Shown here one piece after another: positions 4 to 63,823 of a DNA stretch of 63,823 nt. The notes below the pieces were generated by a model. That model saw nothing but the letters and a program-made list of their open reading frames with translations, was not told the DNA's origin and searched no databases. Location: positions 1 to 63,823 of IMG/VR virus record IMGVR_UViG_3300020034_000013. One strand, written 5' to 3'. Source of the DNA: a virus (taxonomy: Duplodnaviria > Caudoviricetes). Position numbers and translations under genes: made by a program. Positions within the stretch are counted from its first letter, which is position 1; each line of letters begins with the position of its first letter.

Positions 4-441
4 TCACACTATGAGATCCGGAGTTTGACCTTGTAGAAGTCTCTCTGCTTTTACTCGTCCAAGTTCTTCATACGAGATGATGCGAATATTCCCGGGAATT
101 CTCCAGTGCTCCCGAAGTTTTTCTTTCTCGTAGCGAGTTTTCTCGACGAGGGCGGCCGGGAGAATGAGAATAGGGCGTACCGAATCTAGGACATAGGGTG
201 CGAGGAGAGATATCAGAGTCTTCCCGTACCCCACGGGAATAGGACCGAACAACCCCCCGGTTTCCGCTAGCTCTATGAGTGCCTGCGCCTGTATTGGTTT
301 GAGGGTCCACGTACCTCCAGGAGTCTTAAGGACGGCGGTGAGTTCTAGCGCGAGTGCGGCCCAATCTCTCTCGGTGCGACGAGGAAGAGCAGCTATACGA
401 CGGAACTCGGCAGTAGCAGAAAGCGACGATTTATTGAACAT
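4..441 (-). CDS. SF2 (SNF2/DEAD-like) helicase, N-terminal part
   Basis: Q-motif-like LKPIQAQA, Walker A-like PVGYGKT, ISYEEL, and ends at PDLIV just before the expected DExH. ATG at 441 overlaps the upstream stop (TAATG). A TGA lies at 4-6, at the contig edge. Confidence 0.8.
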   Translation of the reverse strand: MFNKSSLSATAEFRRIAALPRRTERDWAALALELTAVLKTPGGTWTLKPIQAQALIELAETGGLFGPIPVGYGKTLISLLAPYVLDSVRPILILPAALVEKTRYEKEKLREHWRIPGNIRIISYEELGRVKAERLLQGQTPDLIV

Positions 442-770
442 TACGTCACCGGGGAGGCGTAGCAAGGGATCCATAGACCAACGACATCCCAAGAATACAC
501 CGTGCCATTTCCCCCACCGTCGGCCATCTTGCAGAGGCTTTCCAGATGATCTGAATACAGGGTGACACTCTTGACTACGAAAAAGAAGGACAGGCGGTAC
601 GAAGGAAGAAGGGTTATCGAGGGGACTTCCGAGATCTCCGAAGGCTCCCACCCCGCTGCTAGGTAGTCTAGGCTAATGGCCTGAAGGATGTCGATATCTG
701 CGCTCATGAAGGTTCGGTCACCTACGGCAAGAATATACACCGACGGCTGGCTATGAAGGATGGGGGTCAT
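441..770 (-). CDS. hypothetical protein
   Basis: 109 aa ORF with start/stop overlaps to both neighbours. Confidence 0.5.
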   Translation of the reverse strand: MTPILHSQPSVYILAVGDRTFMSADIDILQAISLDYLAAGWEPSEISEVPSITLLPSYRLSFFFVVKSVTLYSDHLESLCKMADGGGNGTVYSWDVVGLWIPCYASPVT

Positions 771-29637: not shown

Positions 29638-31163
29638 TGTCTGCCGACCTTTTCACCTTCTCCGTCCCCGACCCCGAAGAGATCCGCGATGGCTTCCTTC
29701 GTACGATCAAGGCAGGTCTCATCCAGCGTGGGGTGCTCAACCCAAACGTTAGCGCGCAATCCGACTTCTACGTCGAAGCTACGGCGTTCTCCAACGAAGC
29801 CTCTGTTGTCCACGGTAACACTGTCGTCAAGGCTGACGAGATCTTCCCTGACACTGCTCCGGCGGGGGATGCCCTTATCCGGGCCGGTGCGAGAGTGGGC
29901 GTGGAGCCCAGAAATCCGGCGGGTTCTTTTGGCAGCGTGGTTTTGAACTGTACTGCATCCACTACGATTGCACTCGGACAGCAGCTCATCGACCCGTCTG
30001 GTTTGATCTACGAGGTCACCGTCGGGGGGCTGTACAACAATGGAGACCAGGTTCCCATACAGGCAGATGCCGCCGGTGCGAGTACCAACCTCCCTGAGGG
30101 TACGTCCCTTCGTTGGCAAACAGCCCCTCCGTTTTCCGCGAGCGCGGCACTTGTCGGTCTCGGAGGTCTCATCAACGGTACAGACGTCGAGAACCCCGAA
30201 GCCTTTCGCGCTCGCGTGCTCTCAAACTACCAGAATCCACCGGGCAATGGCAATCCGCAGCATGTCATCAACATCGCGGAGCAATCTTCTCCGAGCGTTC
30301 AAAAAGCGTTTGTGTATCCGACCATCCAGGGTCCAAGCACGGATCATGTTGCGGTCTGTGCAGCCCCGACGGCGACCAATCCGAGCAGGGAAATCAGCTC
30401 CACGCTCATGGCTGGAACAATCGTGCCCTACATCCAAGGAGCGCTCCCTACCCGCATCTTCACGACAATCACCACGGTCACCGATGTCTTCGTGACTTGC
30501 GCCTTCGCAGTGGCATTGCCCAGTGCACCCACGGGCTCCCCTCCCGGTCCGGGCGGAGGGTGGCTGGATGGTACACCGTTCCCTCAGATCAACCCGACAG
30601 CAGCTATCTATTCGGTGCCAACAACGGCGGTGCTAGCCAGCAACCGGTTCACGATCGCCGCCCCTGTAGTTGCCCCTACGGTAAACGTCTCACGCATAGC
30701 ATATTTCTCTTTTACACAACAGAGACTTTACAAAGCTACTGTCATCGCGTACGATACACTTACCCACGAAATTACCATCGACACCCCTTTCGTAGGTATC
30801 AACGCAGGCGATTTGATTTTCCCCCAGAGCGCAAACCAAGAATTATACATCGCGGCTATCAAAGCTGGGTTCGAGCTCATGGGACCCGGAGAAAAGTCGA
30901 CCAATACCTCCGTGCTCGTGAGAGGGTTCCGCCATCCGCCTCCCGTCACTTCCTGGCCTAGCGGCATGGGACCTAACCTCCTGAGAGCTATCACGGATGC
31001 AGGAGAGGAAGTTGGGGCAGCGCAGTATGCCTTTCGGTATGATGGGATCACTACGAATACTTCTTCGGGCGGTACGTTTTATCCGGCTGTCCCCGTTGTC
31101 GTAACAGATCCTCCTAATCTTTTCGTTCCCTTCAGAATCGGTATCTACCCGATCTCCTCATAA
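29637..31163 (+). CDS. baseplate J-like wedge protein
   Basis: IFPDTA, GASTNL, GTDVE..EAFRARV, PPGNGN, AFVYP. Confidence 0.92.
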   Translation: MSADLFTFSVPDPEEIRDGFLRTIKAGLIQRGVLNPNVSAQSDFYVEATAFSNEASVVHGNTVVKADEIFPDTAPAGDALIRAGARVGVEPRNPAGSFGSVVLNCTASTTIALGQQLIDPSGLIYEVTVGGLYNNGDQVPIQADAAGASTNLPEGTSLRWQTAPPFSASAALVGLGGLINGTDVENPEAFRARVLSNYQNPPGNGNPQHVINIAEQSSPSVQKAFVYPTIQGPSTDHVAVCAAPTATNPSREISSTLMAGTIVPYIQGALPTRIFTTITTVTDVFVTCAFAVALPSAPTGSPPGPGGGWLDGTPFPQINPTAAIYSVPTTAVLASNRFTIAAPVVAPTVNVSRIAYFSFTQQRLYKATVIAYDTLTHEITIDTPFVGINAGDLIFPQSANQELYIAAIKAGFELMGPGEKSTNTSVLVRGFRHPPPVTSWPSGMGPNLLRAITDAGEEVGAAQYAFRYDGITTNTSSGGTFYPAVPVVVTDPPNLFVPFRIGIYPISS

Positions 31164-49231: not shown

Positions 49232-50142
49232 GTTTGCACAGCCGGATAGAAACGGGATGAGAATTCGGAGGCTCGCCCCCTGCGGTCTACCGTGAACGAT
49301 ATGATGCTTGCACCGACATCCCACGGTCGAGAAATCCGGTTCCCAAACGAGCCTTTCTTGACCTGGAAGCAGCCTCCGCTCGCGCAAAAAATGTCCTCCG
49401 CCTGCGCGTAGCAACTAGCCACGTGATGAAGATGTCCCGCCAGTATGAGATCCGTAGGATCTTGTAAATTCTCCGCGTGAGAGTTGAGCATGCGACGGAT
49501 TGCATTGGGTGTACTGGCCGCACCCATGGGGTGCCAAAGGTGCGTACGGGCTCCTTCGATCACAGCATTGCCACGGCACGTTCCCGCATGATGCCAATCT
49601 AGGCCGGCCTTGCGCATGCGGTCTTCAACGATCTTCCCGATGTCCAGGCCTATCGCATCCGATGAATAGTAGTCATGGTTCCCGGTGATGGCGGCGACTT
49701 TCCACGGGTTGCCTTTCATCGTGTCGACGAGTTCATCGATCTGCTCATCTGCTCCATGTAGTCGCTGTTCAGGCAGAAGGATGCTTTTGACGCCATCGGT
49801 ACCATCTCCGGTGAAAGCGATCGACCGGCACCCTTCCTTCCATGCAAAGGAAAGAAACTTCTTGAGGGCCTTGGGCGCGAATTGTCGGCTCCCCGCGTGC
49901 GTGTCCGTGACGTGTGCGATCTTGTGACGGCCGGGACTCGGTTTTCCGATGACAACGAGAGCGCCTACGCCGACTTCGAGCTTGGTGAAGACGTGCTGCC
50001 CTGTGACGTGGAGGTTGTAGCCTTCCTTCTTGCCGTTAGCGATGGTGGATCGAAGCTCTTTTTCGGAGCACTGGAGTTTGGCCGTGAGCCACGAGATCTC
50101 CCGGGGTTTCTTCGAGGTGTGATGAATGAGGTCATGCAACAT
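49228..50142 (-). CDS. calcineurin-like metallophosphoesterase with N-terminal HTH
   Basis: DTH, GDGTDG, GNHD, HP, GHLH motifs. Confidence 0.88.
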   Translation of the reverse strand: MLHDLIHHTSKKPREISWLTAKLQCSEKELRSTIANGKKEGYNLHVTGQHVFTKLEVGVGALVVIGKPSPGRHKIAHVTDTHAGSRQFAPKALKKFLSFAWKEGCRSIAFTGDGTDGVKSILLPEQRLHGADEQIDELVDTMKGNPWKVAAITGNHDYYSSDAIGLDIGKIVEDRMRKAGLDWHHAGTCRGNAVIEGARTHLWHPMGAASTPNAIRRMLNSHAENLQDPTDLILAGHLHHVASCYAQAEDIFCASGGCFQVKKGSFGNRISRPWDVGASIISFTVDRRGRASEFSSRFYPAVQT

Positions 50143-50686
50143 TGGACAACTCCATTACGATCTGCAGGGCTCTTTGATACGTGTGGACGCGCGTGTAGCA
50201 TGAAAATACCGCATCATCGGCATTCCACGGGCGGTCGAACAAGATGGCTCGACCCCGGGGATGGGCCGCGGCCCATGCTTTCACAGTGTGCAAGTTATCT
50301 TCGATGAGGATGTCTCCTCCGACAAGATGTTTCAGATGCGAAGGGCAATGGATCACGAAAGGAGACCACGGCTCAATCCACTCCTGTCGTTCGCTCGTCC
50401 AATACAGGGACGGCGTGGGGGCCGTGAGCGCGATGAAATCCGTCTCCTTCGCGAGCTCCCCTAAGAATTCATGAGCGCCCGAGTAAAGAGGAATCTGCTC
50501 GCAGAAACCCCGCTGCATCGAGAGCTCACGGAGGATATTCAGGCTCTCTGGATCGAGCACTTTTGAGAGATCCCAATCCGTGAACTCTTCGGGCGAGTAT
50601 AGGATGCCTCGCGTCTGCAGGAGGTTGCAAATATGTCCCACGTAGTCGGCGACGACCCCGTCTATATCGAGGAGCACGGTAATCAT
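50132..50686 (-). CDS. 5'(3')-deoxyribonucleotidase (HAD, NT5C-like)
   Basis: LLDIDGVVAD, LTAP, K..V.GDILIEDN, FDRPWN. Confidence 0.9.
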   Translation of the reverse strand: MITVLLDIDGVVADYVGHICNLLQTRGILYSPEEFTDWDLSKVLDPESLNILRELSMQRGFCEQIPLYSGAHEFLGELAKETDFIALTAPTPSLYWTSERQEWIEPWSPFVIHCPSHLKHLVGGDILIEDNLHTVKAWAAAHPRGRAILFDRPWNADDAVFSCYTRVHTYQRALQIVMELSNVA

Positions 50687-51063
50687 ACTGCCCCCGAAAC
50701 TTCCGCTGGCGCGATCGTGAGGATATTTAGATTGTTCGAGATAAAGTGCAAAATCCAGGGAGTAACGAGCCGGATAAGATCTTCCTCCCACTTGTCTTCG
50801 TATGGCTTCTTTATCCAACCTTCGATGTTAGGACCTACCCCCGATGCCTCCAAAAGATAATGGATGATCTCATGCAGGAGAGTGTCACGTTGGCGGTCAG
50901 CGGAGATATTGTCCCGCACCAAGATGCGGCCTTGTTCGATCTTCGCGATACCCTCCGGCACATTGCTGCCTGGTGAGGAGTCCGCTTCTTTCATTTCTTC
51001 CTCAGTGACAAGAAAGACGGAGATATTCTGTCCACAGATATCGAGATCTCGGAGATATCTCAT
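50683..51063 (-). CDS. HExxH zincin-like protein
   Basis: DTLLHEIIH...EE. Confidence 0.7.
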   Translation of the reverse strand: MRYLRDLDICGQNISVFLVTEEEMKEADSSPGSNVPEGIAKIEQGRILVRDNISADRQRDTLLHEIIHYLLEASGVGPNIEGWIKKPYEDKWEEDLIRLVTPWILHFISNNLNILTIAPAEVSGAV

Positions 51064-51521: not shown

Positions 51522-52034
51522 CTAAGATGCCTCGACCTTGATAGTGGATTGCACAATACCTACAGAACCTCGGGTTCCGTCCAGACCTTCAGTCTGGGCC
51601 AGGATAAATAGGACACAGCACGCCGCATGTGCGAGATGAGGGAGTCCGGATTCCTGATCGTTACGCTCACCCCCCCGCCATGCCTCGTAGTGGCGCAATA
51701 ACGCGTCTTCATACCGTTCCGTAGAGACACCCTGCCAATTATTGCTACCGTACTTCTGGGCCCCGAAGGTGAGCACCTTGGCCGCGAGTCTGAGAGCCTT
51801 CCACGGGAGGAGCGACATGCGGTCCTTGCCCTGATCGTCCTTGCGAGGGGCGGCGGGTAGGACGGGACCCTCGGCATGAGCCTCTTCTGGCCAGCGAGGT
51901 GGTGGGGGGATAGCATCGCGAGGAGGCTCCACCCAATTGGGGGCAGGGCCTACCCTATGATTTCGACATGCCGTATCCCCGGGGAGCGTGGGGCTGGAAC
52001 AGCCCCATTTGCTACATAGGCCTAGATCGCTCAC
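51522..52034 (-). CDS. dATP/dGTP diphosphohydrolase-domain protein (DUF5664-type)
   Basis: K.D.GK.R.SLLP, VLTFGA.KY..NNW, ALLRH, D.ESGLPHLAHAAC. Confidence 0.88.
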   Translation of the reverse strand: MSDLGLCSKWGCSSPTLPGDTACRNHRVGPAPNWVEPPRDAIPPPPRWPEEAHAEGPVLPAAPRKDDQGKDRMSLLPWKALRLAAKVLTFGAQKYGSNNWQGVSTERYEDALLRHYEAWRGGERNDQESGLPHLAHAACCVLFILAQTEGLDGTRGSVGIVQSTIKVEAS

Positions 52035-61251: not shown

Positions 61252-61511
61252 TCACGTACGTAGCGGATTTGAATCGCTAAACGAGAGCTTATTTAGGCGC
61301 TCGAGCTTCTTTTTACTTGAAACGATTGCAGCATCCCTCATCTCGAGGCAGCGCTCTCTAGCCTCCTCAAACGTCTCGAAAAACTCTCCTGGGGACAGAA
61401 ATGTGCCGTCGACCCCCCGGGGATAATCTCCTCGAACGAGGATCCCACGATTCGCCCTTCGACCTCCAGGATCCCTCGAGTCAATGCGTACTTGGTGCAG
61501 TAGACTTTCAC
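61252..61511 (-). pseudogene. frameshifted paralog of 60721-61242
   Basis: GGAGG-N-GTG start, KVYCTKYALTRGIL; the matching C-terminus (EFFETFEEARERC...KLERLNKLSF) lies in another frame after ~61445. Confidence 0.6.
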
Positions 61512-61593
61512 GACATTCCCTCCGTTAGCGCCGAATCGACCAGGTACCAGCCCCCAGCCATCTGGCGGATAAGACCACGTCAACACCATAACT

Positions 61594-61851
61594 TCATTCC
61601 CCTGCCTCAACAGAGAGAGCATCTTCAACCAAGTCACGAGTCCCCGCCATCTGCCTCGTGAGACCCTTGTAGTTGCGTTCCCCGCTCAGCAAAATCTCGA
61701 TGAAGCCGTGGTCCTTGGCGCCGTAGCCAAGTGCGCTCTTGACGTAGATGCGGACCAGGCCGCCCTTGTCCCACACCTTAGCGGCGCGGCCTTTGCTCTC
61801 GAGCACCTCAACAATCTTCTCCGCCATCTCGTCCGTGGTTATCGCGCTCAT
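61594..61851 (-). CDS. early protein, paralog of 58484-58792
   Basis: AKVWDKGGLVRIYV; promoter TTGACA-N16-TATCTT at 61894-61921. Confidence 0.75.
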   Translation of the reverse strand: MSAITTDEMAEKIVEVLESKGRAAKVWDKGGLVRIYVKSALGYGAKDHGFIEILLSGERNYKGLTRQMAGTRDLVEDALSVEAGE

Positions 61852-61931
61852 CGTCTCATCCTCCCGGGGACATCCACTGCCCTCACCCCACTGAAGATAA
61901 TTCTCTCTCGGGGTCTGTCAACGGGTACACC

Positions 61932-61962
61932 AAAGAAAAAGCCCCAGGGTAGCCGGGGCTTG
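61932..61962 (-). terminator. rho-independent terminator
   Basis: AAGCCCCGG-CTAC-CCTGGGGCTT-TTTCTTT. Confidence 0.8.
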
Positions 61963-61987
61963 GAAGAAACGGCCTCGTGTACCTTAG

Positions 61988-62056
61988 GGCCGCCGACCGG
62001 ATCTGCCGGCATCTATCTCTTTTACTCGAGATCCCTCTGCTTGGGGTACGGTTGCC
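61988..62056 (-). ncRNA. degenerate tRNA-like element
   Basis: GGCAACCG/CGGCGGCC closing stem (6/8 pairs), UA linker, three hairpins in cloverleaf order; T-loop is non-canonical. Confidence 0.35.
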
Positions 62057-62071
62057 AGTACCCGAGACCGG

Positions 62072-62160
62072 GGCATCGACGTGGATTCGAACCACACGAG
62101 CCGGGCTATCGGCTCTCCTCCTCAGGGTTCCCTGAGATGCACCCCATGTGCTTTCGATGC
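62072..62160 (-). ncRNA. tRNA-like RNA (long variable arm) lacking a canonical anticodon loop
   Basis: Perfect 7 bp acceptor GCATCGA/TCGATGC, D-stem GCAC/GTGC, variable arm GAGCCG/CGGCTC, T-arm GTGG-TTCGAAT-CCAC. Confidence 0.7.
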
Positions 62161-62173
62161 AGTTGTCGAGGAG

Positions 62174-62647
62174 CTACACGGCGGTGAAGTAGAACTTCTG
62201 GAAGGTTTTACCCTCGTGCTTACCCTTGCCCGCTTCGTCCTCGACCCGAATGCGGACTTTGGACCCCTTGTAAAGATCATCGGCCCACTCCACGAGTTTG
62301 ACCTCGATCGCTTTGGAGGCTCCAGTTTTCTCCTCTTGATTGAGATCGCTTCGGTCCAGACCCTCGCAAGCGAAGGCAAGTTGGTACAGAAGGTCTGTAC
62401 TGGGCCCCGCCGACAGACCATTCATGCTGCGATACCAAGAACGCTCCGAGCCAACCCGAATCCCGGGATTATCGGACTCTACGACTTTGAACTCACCAAT
62501 GAGCGCACTTCCGTGCATTTTGGTCTCGAACGCGAGGAGTTTCTTGACCTCGACAACATAATTCCCGATTTCAAACCCCGGGAGGCGATCCGTAATCTCC
62601 TTCGAACCCGTGCCCGTGAAAAGTTTCTTTGCGAGATTGCTTGACAT
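62174..62647 (-). CDS. single-stranded DNA-binding-like protein (putative)
   Basis: G.YVVEV, EFKVVES, G.KVRIRV, F.K..F suggest an OB fold; next to the helicase. Confidence 0.55.
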   Translation of the reverse strand: MSSNLAKKLFTGTGSKEITDRLPGFEIGNYVVEVKKLLAFETKMHGSALIGEFKVVESDNPGIRVGSERSWYRSMNGLSAGPSTDLLYQLAFACEGLDRSDLNQEEKTGASKAIEVKLVEWADDLYKGSKVRIRVEDEAGKGKHEGKTFQKFYFTAV

Positions 62648-62686
62648 GTACTTACCTATTTGTGGTGCGTGTGTGTGTTTTGAGCG

Positions 62687-63823
62687 CTATGCTCGATTCC
62701 AACGATAGCCTGCCTGAGAGAGTATGTCCACTTCTTTTGGGAGTATTTTATCCGCGAGCGTTAGGCGTTGCGTCGATCCCATCATGTCCCCCGTGGCCTT
62801 AGCTTGCGCCATTGCCTTGTGTAGCGCCTCCCAATGCTCGATGCAACCGATCATTACGTCCACACTTACTTCATCGCTGCGATGTCCTGGTCGATGCGTT
62901 CTCCCTAGGAGCTGTTCCCACTGTTTGGCGGAGGGATCGGGGGCAGAAATGAGGTTGCGATCCCACGTCTTTTGCAGGTTGAGGCCCTCCACGCAAGCGA
63001 ATGCACTGGCGATGATCGGTACCGGCTTGTCCACGACGTGGTCGGCGAAGGCTTGTAGATGTCGGCCTTGAGCATCGGTGGCCTCTTGTCCGAAGTAGGG
63101 GACCCCGGTGCGCCGAGAGAGCTCCCGACCAAAAAATACGTGGGACACCCACACGATACCCGGTCCCTGTTTTATCCACGCTTCACAGGTCGCCAGTGCA
63201 CTTTCATCGTGCCAAATGTCCTTGGGGTTGATCTTGAAGGTCGGCCGTATGGCGCGCCACTTGGCCAATGGTTCTCGGCCACTTGGCAGCTTGCCATCAT
63301 CCACTGCATTGGTCACTGCGAGTTCGGAGTCTATGGATTGAGACCGCGACAAGATCTCTCTCACGTAGGACGCCCACTCCCGTCGAGCATCACGCCATAC
63401 CTCGGGTGGACGTGGAGACCATACACCGTTGAAACCCAGTGCGAGTTGCCGCGCGTACATCCATTCGAGTGCGGATTCAGAAAACGTCCAACCGTCCGGA
63501 GTCTCATTGAGCGTGCGCAATGTCTCGAAATTCGCCTCCGTGGTGGCAGATGTTTGGTACACAAGGGCCTGTAGATAAAGAGAAGCCCCCACGCCCTCCG
63601 CATCGGCGCCCGCAGCTACTACTCCGGGGGTAGCCACCAAGCGAGCATGAAAACCTCGCCTTGCGGCTTGCAGCGCGCTATCGTGCTTACCTGGGGGTGA
63701 CCAGTCCACGAGAGGTCCGGGGCGCACCCTCTTGAGGGGATTTACTTTCTCGTCAAGACAATCGGCCCACTCGGAAAGTTCTTGATCGGAAGAAGGCACG
63801 GGGGCACCTGACTTGTGAGTGAA
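62687..63823 (-). CDS. SF2 helicase, C-terminal part (open to the window end)
   Basis: GIVWV, EGLNLQ, WEQLLGRTHRPG (motifs IV-VI); frame is open to 63823 (FTHKSGAPVP...). Confidence 0.88.
   Translation of the reverse strand, partial: FTHKSGAPVPSSDQELSEWADCLDEKVNPLKRVRPGPLVDWSPPGKHDSALQAARRGFHARLVATPGVVAAGADAEGVGASLYLQALVYQTSATTEANFETLRTLNETPDGWTFSESALEWMYARQLALGFNGVWSPRPPEVWRDARREWASYVREILSRSQSIDSELAVTNAVDDGKLPSGREPLAKWRAIRPTFKINPKDIWHDESALATCEAWIKQGPGIVWVSHVFFGRELSRRTGVPYFGQEATDAQGRHLQAFADHVVDKPVPIIASAFACVEGLNLQKTWDRNLISAPDPSAKQWEQLLGRTHRPGHRSDEVSVDVMIGCIEHWEALHKAMAQAKATGDMMGSTQRLTLADKILPKEVDILSQAGYRWNRA

What the first reader, a model, noticed from the sequence alone, without database searches (positions are those of the whole stretch)
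62072..62160. tRNA-like RNA with intact acceptor, T and variable arms but a sealed anticodon arm
Seen: an 89 nt cloverleaf with a perfect acceptor stem, canonical TTCGAAT T-loop and long variable arm. The anticodon arm is TCTCAGG-GAAC-CCTGAGG, a 7 bp stem with a 4 nt loop and no U33. No CCA is encoded. Full pairing argues against random decay. Inference: a non-decoding tRNA mimic, for example a decoy for anticodon nucleases or synthetases (SerRS reads the variable arm, not the anticodon), or an RNase P/Z processing signal in the helicase-SSB transcript.
Basis: partly seen in the sequence, partly recalled or inferred. Interest (0 to 1): 0.75.

Follow-up and report, generated by a model that had tools for sequence, protein, structure and literature searches.

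The report
Phage tRNA look-alike without an anticodon
A soil phage carries a perfectly folded tRNA-shaped gene whose anticodon loop is closed into a hairpin, so it cannot read codons; related phages carry similar anticodon-less look-alikes at the same spot, which points to a kept, non-decoding tRNA mimic rather than a broken gene.

Summary
On the minus strand at 62160-62073 (discriminator 62072) lies an 88-nt cloverleaf. It has a 7-bp acceptor stem, 4-bp D stem, 6-bp long variable arm and 5-bp T stem with a UUCGAAU loop. The anticodon position is a 7-bp hairpin with a GAAC loop.

- **Tool calls:** ARAGORN calls it tRNA-??? with a two-letter 'anticodon'. Rfam tRNA gives no match, and tRNA-Sec scores 22.2 bits against a cut-off of 47.
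- **Context:** it sits 13 nt after a DUF669-like 157-aa gene that follows an SNF2-type helicase, and 111 nt before an intrinsic terminator.
- **Homologues:** I found no sequence-level orthologue.
- **Relatives:** the same slot holds tRNA-shaped elements, all on the helicase strand. There are 30 perfect acceptor/T-arm hits, against 0 on the other strand and 0.2 in shuffles. ARAGORN reads 11 of the 30 as ordinary tRNAs, and 19 have closed, shortened or missing anticodon arms.
- **Conserved pair:** one sealed pair (L141/L110) keeps 47 of 48 paired cells, with one compensatory change.

Best reading (0.45): a kept non-decoding tRNA mimic, cut from the mRNA by tRNA-processing enzymes, whose function lies in the acceptor/T half. 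The main rival is a young tRNA relic (0.28). The anticodon-nuclease and SerRS decoy ideas are poorly supported. Earlier notes of this scan describe similar mimics in other phages. No expression data exist.

The parts
62073..62160 (-). 88-nt tRNA-shaped RNA gene (anticodon-less tRNA mimic)
   Evidence: Sequence. MFE cloverleaf. ARAGORN tRNA-???. RF01852 22.2 bits. RF00005 no match at E<=10.
62154..62160 (-). Acceptor stem, 5' strand (GCAUCGA)
   Evidence: Pairs 7 of 7 with 62073-62079.
62139..62151 (-). D arm: 4-bp stem GCAC/GUGC with 5-nt loop AUGGG (contains the GG of the elbow)
62120..62137 (-). Sealed 'anticodon' arm: 7-bp stem UCUCAGG/CCUGAGG with loop GAAC (62127-62130). No U33 and no 7-nt loop.
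   Evidence: ARAGORN reads a 6-nt loop with a 2-nt 'anticodon'.
62097..62119 (-). Long variable region: linker AGGA, 6-bp stem GAGCCG/CGGCUC with 6-nt loop AUAGCC, then G
62080..62096 (-). T arm: UGUGG / CCACG with loop UUCGAAU
   Evidence: A 16-nt stretch of it (62080-62095) is identical to part of the T arm of L141:1453-1529.
62069..62079 (-). Acceptor stem 3' strand (62073-62079), discriminator C (62072), then CCG (62069-62071). CCA is not encoded.
62174..62647 (-). 157-aa ORF of a conserved phage family (DUF669-like by atlas lead), ending 13 nt before the element
   Evidence: ORF. No Pfam or PHROG hit. Homologues: L109 33% identity, E 1e-25; L141 28%, E 3e-15. tblastn finds the family in 57 loci. 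DUF669 lead.
62690..63823 (-). C-terminal 378 aa of an SNF2-type helicase, cut by the contig end
   Evidence: P0002 residues 207-584 at 100% identity. Pfam PF00270/PF00176 precomputed for P0002.
7..474 (-). N-terminal 156 aa of the same helicase, at the other contig end. About 50 codons are missing between the two ends.
   Evidence: tblastn of P0002.
61939..61961 (-). Intrinsic-terminator-like hairpin (9 pairs, 6 G-C) followed by UUUCUUUGGU, 111 nt downstream of the element
62702..62730 (-). Sigma-70-like promoter match upstream of the 157-aa ORF (9 of 12). A consensus match only.
61894..61921 (-). Sigma-70-like promoter match (10 of 12) just after the terminator, before the next minus-strand genes

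Best explanation
The element is a kept, non-decoding tRNA mimic. It is transcribed as the tail of the helicase / DUF669-like mRNA, because no promoter fits in the 13-nt gap. It folds into a tRNA L-shape with an intact acceptor/T 'top half' and an intact D-loop/T-loop elbow.

Because of that shape (inferred, not shown), it is cut out by the host's tRNA enzymes. RNase P would cut at its 5' end, a 3' processing nuclease such as RNase Z would cut after C73 or after CC, and the CCA-adding enzyme would complete the end. The closed 7-bp hairpin in place of the anticodon loop keeps it out of decoding.

Its selected role therefore lies in the top half. Most likely it is a cut-here and 3'-end-defining mark for the upstream mRNA, which also releases a stable small RNA.

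- **Shown:** the fold, the context, and the recurrence of such elements in relatives.
- **Inferred:** transcription, processing, stability and any benefit.
For: 1. **All 29 pairs of five helices are intact.** Only the anticodon arm departs from tRNA rules. Its 18 nt form a 7-bp stem with a 4-nt loop, against the usual 17 nt of a 5-bp stem with a 7-nt loop.
2. **It lies on the same strand, 13 nt after the upstream ORF.** A terminator follows 111 nt downstream, and the only promoter-like sites lie outside this interval.
3. **tRNA-shaped elements recur downstream of the helicase in relatives.** I scanned the 3 kb downstream of the helicase in 133 non-redundant loci (347,876 nt). T-loop sites with 12 of 12 acceptor+T pairs number 30 on the helicase strand, 0 on the other strand and 0.2 in shuffles. 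With one mismatch the counts are 17, 5 and 3.7. Few copies therefore look decayed.
4. **Most of those 30 elements are not ordinary tRNAs.** ARAGORN reads 11 as ordinary tRNAs and 3 as '???' (the window, L141, L055), and leaves 16 uncalled. The non-canonical ones have short closed loops or no anticodon arm at all (54-59-nt forms in L123, L129, L141, L179-181, L072). So the top half is kept and the anticodon domain is free to vary.
5. **Synteny holds.** Helicase, then a 157-aa-family ORF, then an irregular tRNA-like element is seen in L109 (closest relative held, helicase 56%), L141 and L110.
6. **A sealed pair is conserved.** L141:1453-1529 and L110:2411-2487 are 82% identical where the flanking genes are 73-75% identical. 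They keep 47 of 48 paired cells, with one double compensatory change in the acceptor stem and two GC/GU swaps in the sealed stem.
7. **Substrate precedent exists.** RNase P is known to cut tRNA-like non-tRNA substrates, including phage RNAs and mRNAs (passage in PMC11143913).
8. **A minimal form resembles mascRNA.** L141:1653-1709 resembles the RNase P/Z-processed mascRNA model RF01684 (33.5 bits, below its 42.5 cut-off).
Against: - **No orthologue.** No clear orthologue of this particular RNA was found, so its own sealed stem has no covariation support. The best candidate, L031:6835-6929, is only suggestive: alignment z 2.96, 3 of 500 shuffles, as 1 of 11 comparisons. That alignment is not consistent with the structure.
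- **The slot is usually empty.** 29 of 44 distinct loci with the 157-aa gene have no tRNA-shaped element within 600 nt, 12 have a perfect one and 3 have only an 11-of-12 match. The operon does not need such a mark.
- **Circularity.** My scan demands perfect acceptor and T stems, so their intactness in the 30 hits is partly circular. Only the excess over the controls and the small one-mismatch class speak to selection.
- **The conserved pair is small evidence.** With two sequences the shuffle control is uninformative (248 of 500).
- **No RNA evidence of any kind.**
- **Two tRNA features are off.** A8 instead of U8 and a 5-nt D loop may weaken the tRNA-like tertiary fold.
Confidence: 0.45

Rival explanations
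1. It is an inert relic. A phage-borne type II tRNA gene (Leu/Ser/Tyr-like) recently lost its anticodon loop by a small rearrangement and has not yet decayed or been deleted.
For: - The slot behaves like a gain-and-loss hotspot. It holds tRNAs of many identities (Leu, Arg, Thr, Gln, His, Tyr, Pro) in different relatives, and it is empty in 29 of 44 loci.
- The sealed type in L141/L110 is a paralogue of a Tyr(GUA)-like type II tRNA in L110, which scores 35.2 bits, E 3e-6, with model R2. So sealed forms do derive from tRNA genes.
- The window's element is a singleton.
Against: - Random decay should hit the 58 stem positions as well, yet all 29 pairs are intact.
- Turning a 7-nt loop into two or three extra pairs plus a tetraloop needs several coordinated changes.
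- Across relatives, perfect elements (30) far outnumber the excess of one-mismatch ones (about 12-13), and 19 of the 30 are non-canonical. Passive decay does not predict this.
- The L141/L110 sealed arm survived the divergence of two phages whose helicase genes differ by 27% at the DNA level.
Confidence: 0.28
2. It is a trans-acting decoy or sponge. Once cut out, the RNA binds a host or rival protein that recognises tRNA shape. Candidates are a tRNA-targeting defence nuclease, a synthetase, or a modification or CCA enzyme. Its closed arm makes it uncleavable or unusable.
For: - The tRNA elbow and acceptor end are intact while the anticodon loop is absent.
- Phage tRNAs are known to counter tRNA-cleaving defences. 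I saw only the titles and abstract starts of PMC10264068, PMC11464382 and PMC11555353 (listing).
- Irregular soil tRNAs with G-1 are charged by HisRS yet do not decode (PMC5389517, section 16). The window element has C73, as bacterial tRNA-His does.
Against: - Anticodon nucleases such as PrrC need the anticodon sequence and a breathing stem (PMC3014915 passage).
- Identity rules argue against charging (PMC9976931 passages). For Ser it has C73, C2-G71 and U4-A69 instead of G73, G2-C71 and R4-Y69. For Leu, A73 is crucial and C73 abolishes charging of truncated tRNA-Leu. For His, G-1 is missing (base -1 is U).
- The irregular elements in relatives differ widely in build, which does not suggest one specific protein target.
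- No tRNA-related enzyme gene was found among the 79 window ORFs scanned with Pfam.
Confidence: 0.18
3. It is a working decoder with an unusual loop: an 8-nt loop GGGAACCC on a 5-bp stem, or a 6-nt loop as ARAGORN draws it.
For: - ARAGORN allows 6- and 8-nt loops and reports '(aa)'.
- A relative has an 8-nt-loop call, L055 with 'tcca'.
Against: - The loop has no U33 and no purine 37.
- Its outer bases are G-C complementary, so the MFE fold closes it to 4 nt.
- Rfam tRNA gives no match at E<=10.
Confidence: 0.03
4. The signal is at the DNA level. It would be either an attP-type tRNA copy for integration or a palindromic protein-binding site.
For: The arm is an inverted repeat, CTCAGGG-AA-CCCTGAG.
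Against: - No integrase was found among the 79 ORFs scanned with Pfam or the 19 scanned with PHROGs.
- attP sites carry a tRNA 3' part, not a full compensated cloverleaf.
- The palindrome occurs nowhere else in the window. With up to 3 mismatches there are 3 matches, against about 0.9 expected by chance; two are the site itself read on its two strands and one is a 3-mismatch site at 30876.
Confidence: 0.03

Closest known systems
mascRNA / MEN-beta tRNA-like small RNA (Rfam RF01684)
   Same: Both are tRNA-shaped cloverleaves with a reduced, non-decoding anticodon arm embedded at the end of a longer transcript. From recalled knowledge, mascRNA is released by RNase P and RNase Z and receives CCA. 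A minimal element of a related phage (L141:1653-1709) scores 33.5 bits on this model.
   Different: mascRNA is a eukaryotic nuclear RNA. The window's element is larger (88 nt, with a long variable arm) and did not match RF01684. The match in the relative is below the 42.5-bit cut-off, so this is an analogy and not membership.
Phage T4 RNA C and RNA D (small stable RNAs of the T4 tRNA region)
   Same: These are phage-encoded small RNAs made from a tRNA gene region, with unknown roles (passage in PMC3014915). That they have tRNA-like 3' parts is recalled, not checked here.
   Different: No sequence or structure comparison was made here. The T4 RNAs lie in a tRNA cluster, whereas this element stands alone after a replication-module gene.
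Irregular tRNA polycistrons and allo-tRNA-like sequences of soil (probably acidobacterial) metatranscriptomes, Mukai et al. 2016, PMC5389517
   Same: They come from a soil setting and are expressed, tRNA-shaped genes. Some are charged but not used in translation, and the authors consider a regulatory non-coding role (abstract and section 16). Relatives of this phage also carry tandem irregular tRNA-shaped genes (L112/L113).
   Different: Most rows I read in supplement sheet 2 (part 23) list a three-letter anticodon; a few partial tRNA0 rows list none. The defining 8/4 or 9/3 acceptor/T build is not present here, which is 7/5. No sequence similarity was tested, because the paper's sequences were not entered into tools.
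Canonical bacterial/phage type II tRNA (Rfam RF00005) and tRNA-Sec (RF01852)
   Same: It shares the acceptor, D, T and long variable arms, the T-loop consensus and the GG in the D loop.
   Different: The anticodon loop is closed. RF00005 gives no match at E<=10 and RF01852 gives 22.2 bits against a 47-bit cut-off. Position 8 is A and position 73 is C.
tmRNA tRNA-like domain
   Same: It is a tRNA top half without an anticodon.
   Different: There is no tag reading frame and no pseudoknots. ARAGORN's tmRNA search found none.

Membership tests
Decoding tRNA (Rfam RF00005) | 7-bp acceptor stem, 5-bp T stem, T-loop consensus with G53-C61 | tested here: met
Decoding tRNA (Rfam RF00005) | 5-bp anticodon stem with a 7-nt loop, U33 and purine 37 | tested here: not met
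   The arm is a 7-bp stem with a 4-nt GAAC loop. ARAGORN gives a 2-nt 'anticodon'.
Decoding tRNA (Rfam RF00005) | Score at or above the family's gathering cut-off (29 bits) | tested here: not met
   No match at gathering and none at E<=10.
tRNA-Sec (RF01852) | Score of 47 bits or more, UCA anticodon and an 8-bp acceptor stem (bacterial 8/5 build; the build is recalled) | tested here: not met
   22.2 bits. The acceptor has 7 bp and there is no UCA loop.
allo-tRNA (Mukai et al. 2016) | 8/4 or 9/3 acceptor/T-stem configuration | tested here: not met
   The build is 7/5. The definition comes from the abstract of PMC5389517.
SerRS substrate mimic (bacterial serine identity) | Large variable region, C72 and C11-G24 | tested here: met
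   against the identity table passage of PMC9976931.
SerRS substrate mimic (bacterial serine identity) | G73, G2-C71 and R4-Y69 | tested here: not met
   The element has C73, C2-G71 and U4-A69 (table).
HisRS substrate mimic (bacterial histidine identity) | G-1 paired with C73 | tested here: not met
   C73 is present, but base -1 (62161) is U.
tRNA-like processing element (works like mascRNA or tRNA punctuation) | tRNA-shaped fold inside a longer transcript, lacking a decoding loop | tested here: met
tRNA-like processing element (works like mascRNA or tRNA punctuation) | Cleavage by RNase P and a 3' tRNA nuclease, followed by CCA addition | not testable with these tools
   No RNA run holds the locus.
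attP tRNA copy of a temperate phage | A tRNA 3' segment next to an integrase gene | tested here: not met
   No integrase family was found in 79 ORFs scanned with Pfam. The element is a full cloverleaf.
tmRNA | tRNA-like domain plus a tag-peptide reading frame | tested here: not met
   ARAGORN searches for tmRNA and reported none.

The most novel reading that the evidence does not exclude
A whole clade of soil phages (SNF2 helicase, then a DUF669-like gene) maintains a diverse family of anticodon-less tRNA mimics in which the anticodon arm is sealed, shortened or deleted. These act in trans after maturation. They might be tRNA-shaped molecules that occupy tRNA-binding host factors such as defence nucleases, synthetases or CCA/modification enzymes, or they might be charged but kept out of the ribosome. 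That would make them a new class of viral tRNA-mimicry effectors, more than processing marks.
Probability: 0.2. Interest if true: 0.8.

Novelty: new variant of a known kind. Interest (0 to 1): 0.55.

Why it matters
Phage tRNA genes are usually discussed as codon supplements or as replacements for tRNAs cut by host defences. Here the decoding part is abolished while the rest of the tRNA is kept intact. In relatives, more than half of the tRNA-shaped genes in the same slot are of this kind.

If these are selected RNAs, tRNA gene finders systematically miss a class of viral small RNAs. The tRNA 'top half' would then be a reusable module for phages, serving transcript processing, stability or interference with tRNA-binding proteins.

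The element also gives a simple, testable substrate: an 88-nt RNA with predicted RNase P and 3'-end cleavage sites.

Tried and rejected
**Searches for homologues of the element**
- **DNA homologues:** blastn of 61900-62700 against 50,697 phage records gave no match. Exact patterns from the T arm/acceptor gave 0 hits in viral contigs and in genome contigs.
- **Sealed-arm 16-mer:** it hit 3 viral contigs (L002-L004). None has a tRNA call from ARAGORN, and the two I read (L002, L004) show no tRNA-like context, so these look like chance matches.
- **Single-protein locus searches** with the 157-aa ORF and the 370-aa helicase part found nothing in viral contigs. Word-based homology for the 157-aa ORF found only itself, yet tblastn later found the family in 57 loci.
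- **GenBank relative MW202816.1** (helicase 27%, polymerase 25% identity) has no tRNA by ARAGORN or Rfam.

**Covariance models**
- **R1**, a single-sequence model of the element. Outside the window itself, no match over 1.45 Mb of loci scored above 22 bits; the best E-values were about 0.03 (L123, L122, L141). Over 49 whole viral records, 1 of 49 matched, at E 0.3.
- **R2**, the L141+L110 model, does not hit the window's element at E<=5. The window's RNA is therefore not shown to belong to that subtype.

**Other tests**
- **Window versus L031 homology** is suggestive only.
- **Sequencing runs:** no RNA holder is listed. Contigs of four DNA runs laid on 61500-62900 show no variant. Two runs from the likely source sample cover the element, and the other two do not reach it.
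- **Overlapping ORFs** (61883-62095 minus, 61708-62187 plus, 62081-62644 plus, 61977-62135 plus, 61848-62012 minus) have no Pfam or PHROG support.
- **Terminal repeat:** none of 20-79 nt was found.
- **Literature:** searches for anticodon-less phage tRNA-like RNAs returned no paper describing this arrangement. That is a statement about those four searches only.

Full report
**What is there**

The window is a whole IMG/VR phage contig: 63,823 bp, 99% complete by CheckV, classed as linear. Read on the minus strand, bases 62160-62073 form an 88-nt cloverleaf:
- Acceptor GCAUCGA/UCGAUGC, 7 of 7 Watson-Crick pairs.
- AA at positions 8-9.
- D arm GCAC-AUGGG-GUGC.
- An arm UCUCAGG-GAAC-CCUGAGG where the anticodon arm should be.
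- Linker AGGA.
- Variable arm GAGCCG-AUAGCC-CGGCUC.
- T arm UGUGG-UUCGAAU-CCACG.
- Discriminator C (62072), then CCG.

This fold is the minimum-free-energy structure (-40.2 kcal/mol, z -2.76). ARAGORN reports it as the only tRNA-type gene of the window, 'tRNA-???' with a two-letter anticodon. Rfam finds nothing at gathering thresholds. At relaxed thresholds only tRNA-Sec appears, at 22.2 bits against a cut-off of 47. The general tRNA model gives no match at E<=10.

**Context**

The gene order on the minus strand is as follows.
- **Helicase.** An SNF2-type helicase is cut by the contig ends. Residues 207-584 of the full 584-aa protein P0002 map to 63823-62690, and residues 1-156 map to 474-7.
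- **157-aa ORF (62647-62174).** It has no Pfam or PHROG match. An atlas lead points to DUF669.
- **The element,** 13 nt after that ORF.
- **A terminator-like hairpin,** 111 nt further on, with a U tract (61961-61939).
- **A promoter-like site,** just beyond the terminator.

The only other promoter-like site lies upstream of the 157-aa ORF, so the element is most simply the tail of that mRNA. ORFs overlapping the element have no family support. Across 79 ORFs scanned with Pfam I saw no integrase, CCA-adding enzyme, RNA ligase or synthetase.

**Relatives**

No DNA-level homologue exists in the collections I could scan. The helicase, however, has many relatives at 40-62% identity. An alignment of 37 of them (A1) retrieved 79 viral loci, 3 genome loci from Labilithrix, Gemmatimonadaceae and Polyangiaceae MAGs, and 80 metagenome loci.

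ARAGORN finds tRNA genes of varied identity 0.2-1.6 kb downstream of the helicase, on its strand, in a number of them.

A simple scan adds many elements that ARAGORN does not call. It asks for a T-loop motif, a 5/5 T stem, and a 7/7 acceptor stem 30-94 nt upstream.
- **All loci (1.34 Mb):** 42 hits on the stored + strand, 3 on the other strand and 3.2 per shuffled replicate. One of the 3 is the window itself, stored in reverse, so it too lies on the helicase strand.
- **133 non-redundant 3-kb regions downstream of the helicase (347,876 nt):** see the table.

| Acceptor+T pairs | Helicase strand | Other strand | Shuffled mean |
|---|---|---|---|
| 12 of 12 | 30 | 0 | 0.2 |
| 11 of 12 | 17 | 5 | 3.7 |
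| 10 of 12 | 30 | 22 | 12.5 |

After removing duplicates there are 34 distinct elements, and 30 lie 0-3 kb downstream on the helicase strand. ARAGORN reads 11 of these as ordinary tRNAs and 3 as '???', and leaves 16 uncalled. Some uncalled ones still pass Rfam's tRNA cut-off: L109 at 50 bits and L122a at 31 bits, and L014b at 41.9 bits. So they derive from tRNAs, and being uncalled is not proof that they cannot decode.

Their middle domains vary:
- closed hairpins with 3-6-nt loops (L141, L110, L031, L109, L014, L112);
- 8-nt loops (L122a, L055);
- long insertions (L112c, L173);
- no anticodon arm at all (54-59-nt forms in L123, L129, L141, L179-181 and L072).

**Synteny**

The 157-aa gene is a conserved family. 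tblastn finds it in 57 loci, with 33% identity to the L109 homologue (E 1e-25) and 28% to the L141 homologue (E 3e-15).

| Within 600 nt downstream, 44 distinct loci | Loci |
|---|---|
| Perfect tRNA-shaped element | 12 |
| Only an 11-of-12 match | 3 |
| None | 29 |

The 12 loci with a perfect element divide as follows.

| Content of the slot | Loci |
|---|---|
| Canonical tRNAs only | 3 (L186, L012, L008) |
| Irregular elements only | 6 (window, L109, L141, L036, L179-181, L123) |
| Both | 3 (L110, L122, L112/113) |

The four nearest relatives held here (L109 56%, L122 54%, L141 51%, L110 50% helicase identity) all have at least one irregular element in the slot.

**Conservation of a sealed arm**

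L141:1453-1529 has a 6-bp arm with a UGCA loop. Its T arm shares a 16-nt identical stretch with the window's. It aligns without gaps to L110:2411-2487 at 82% identity, while the flanking genes are 73-75% identical.

On the cloverleaf, 47 of 48 cells pair. There is one double compensatory change in the acceptor stem and two GC/GU swaps in the sealed stem. With two sequences the shuffle control has no power.

A model of this pair (R2) also detects L110's Tyr(GUA)-like type II tRNA at 35.2 bits. Sealed forms therefore arise from tRNA genes and can then persist.

R2 does not hit the window's element. The only suggestive relative of the window's own RNA is L031:6835-6929. It is a 94-nt type II cloverleaf with arm ACCAG-AAC-CUGGU, C73 and CC. 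The alignment gives z 2.96, as 1 of 11 comparisons.

**Interpretation**

The pattern across the clade is a top half (acceptor, T arm, elbow) that is kept and an anticodon domain that is free to close, shrink or vanish. That is what one expects if the selected property is recognition by enzymes that read the tRNA top half: RNase P, 3' tRNA nucleases and the CCA-adding enzyme.

RNase P is known to cut such non-tRNA substrates, including phage RNAs and mRNAs (passage in PMC11143913). The eukaryotic mascRNA is the textbook case of a tRNA-like, anticodon-poor element used to make a 3' end (recalled). One minimal element in L141 even scores 33.5 bits on that Rfam model, below its cut-off.

I therefore favour a non-decoding tRNA mimic that is cut out of the mRNA, defining the 3' end of the upstream message and yielding a stable small RNA (confidence 0.45).

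Three things count against this:
- The slot is empty in two thirds of relatives.
- The window's own RNA has no orthologue to show covariation.
- There is no RNA evidence. No RNA run is listed, and the laid contigs show no variant.

**Rivals**

- **Young relic of a type II tRNA (0.28).** The gain-and-loss behaviour of the slot and the singleton status of this RNA fit. It is disfavoured by 29 of 29 intact pairs, by the small class of imperfect copies and by the persistence of the L141/L110 form.
- **Trans-acting decoy (0.18).** PrrC-type anticodon nucleases need the anticodon sequence, and a stable stem inhibits them (PMC3014915 passage). The element also misses G73, G2-C71 and R4-Y69 of serine identity, A73 of leucine identity and G-1 of histidine identity (PMC9976931 passages).
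- **Decoding with an odd loop, or a DNA-level role,** are unlikely (no integrase).

**Known relatives in print**

- Mukai et al. 2016 (PMC5389517; I read the abstract passages, section 16 and supplement part 23) describe expressed polycistrons of irregular tRNAs in soil metatranscriptomes. Some are charged but do not decode. Most rows that I read list a three-letter anticodon (a few partial tRNA0 rows list none), and the paper's 8/4 or 9/3 builds are not present here.
- T4 RNA C and RNA D are small RNAs of unknown role from the T4 tRNA region (PMC3014915 passage).
- Four literature searches found no description of anticodon-sealed tRNA mimics in phage replication modules.
- Earlier notes of this scan report similar anticodon-less phage tRNA mimics on other genomes (e1-6028075, e1-3488758, e1-158109). 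I did not test them and count them only as leads.

**Verdict**

The element is a new variant of a known kind (tRNA-like non-decoding RNAs). It gains interest from the clade-wide excess of such mimics, and it is limited by the lack of orthologues and of expression data for this particular RNA.

Noticed in passing
window 7-474 (-) and 62690-63823 (-): The contig breaks inside the helicase gene. Residues 1-156 and 207-584 of the 584-aa protein P0002 map to the two ends, and about 50 codons are missing. The genome is therefore circular or circularly permuted and slightly longer than the window. No terminal repeat of 20-79 nt was found.
   Followed up: partly
L141:1653-1709, L123:3136-3193, L129:3735-3788, L179:2907-2965 (= L180, L181), L072:4959-5013: These are 54-59-nt 'mini' tRNA-like elements: acceptor stem, T arm and one small hairpin, with no anticodon arm. 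They lie on the helicase strand downstream of the helicase. L141's scores 33.5 bits on Rfam mascRNA-menRNA (cut-off 42.5). L123 and L141 share a 29-nt stretch at 97% identity.
   Followed up: partly
L112/L113:6388-6864: A tandem array of four tRNA-shaped genes follows the 157-aa-family gene. ARAGORN calls only one (Leu, anticodon UAG). The other three have a 5-nt loop, an irregular middle and an 11-nt loop containing CUUUCAA.
   Followed up: no
L059:4425-4512: An 88-nt type II 'tRNA-Ala(CGC)' lies upstream of the helicase. Its loop GUCGCAC is self-complementary, so the MFE fold gives a 7-bp stem with a CGC triloop. It scores 35.5 bits on Rfam tRNA.
   Followed up: partly
L141:1579-1642 and L110:2331-2398: A conserved stretch (76% identity) lies between the tRNA-like elements of these two phages. 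By eye, in the sequences, it looks like a long hairpin whose stem differs between the two by compensating changes (GGCUGACAC...GUGUCAGCC versus GCCGAUGC...GCAUCGGC). This may be another structured RNA. It was not folded or counted.
   Followed up: no
window 51522-52034 (-): A 170-aa ORF matches the dATP/dGTP diphosphohydrolase N-terminal domain (PF18909, E 3.9e-31). It lies near a 5'-nucleotidase-like gene (50132-50818) and two DNA methyltransferase-like genes. This hints at nucleotide-pool or DNA-modification functions.
   Followed up: no
L085 (Labilithrix MAG contig of 276 kb), L086, L087: Helicase relatives (45-48% identity) sit in MAG contigs of Myxococcota and Gemmatimonadota. One contig is 276 kb, so it may hold a prophage. 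This is a possible hint to the host range of the clade.
   Followed up: no
L006:7495-7610 (= L111:6495-6610): Directly after the 157-aa-family gene lies a tRNA-like fold ending in GCCA. It has a T arm and a GUAA-capped hairpin in place of the D arm. It has 11 of 12 acceptor+T pairs, is not called by ARAGORN, and its fold z-score is not significant.
   Followed up: partly
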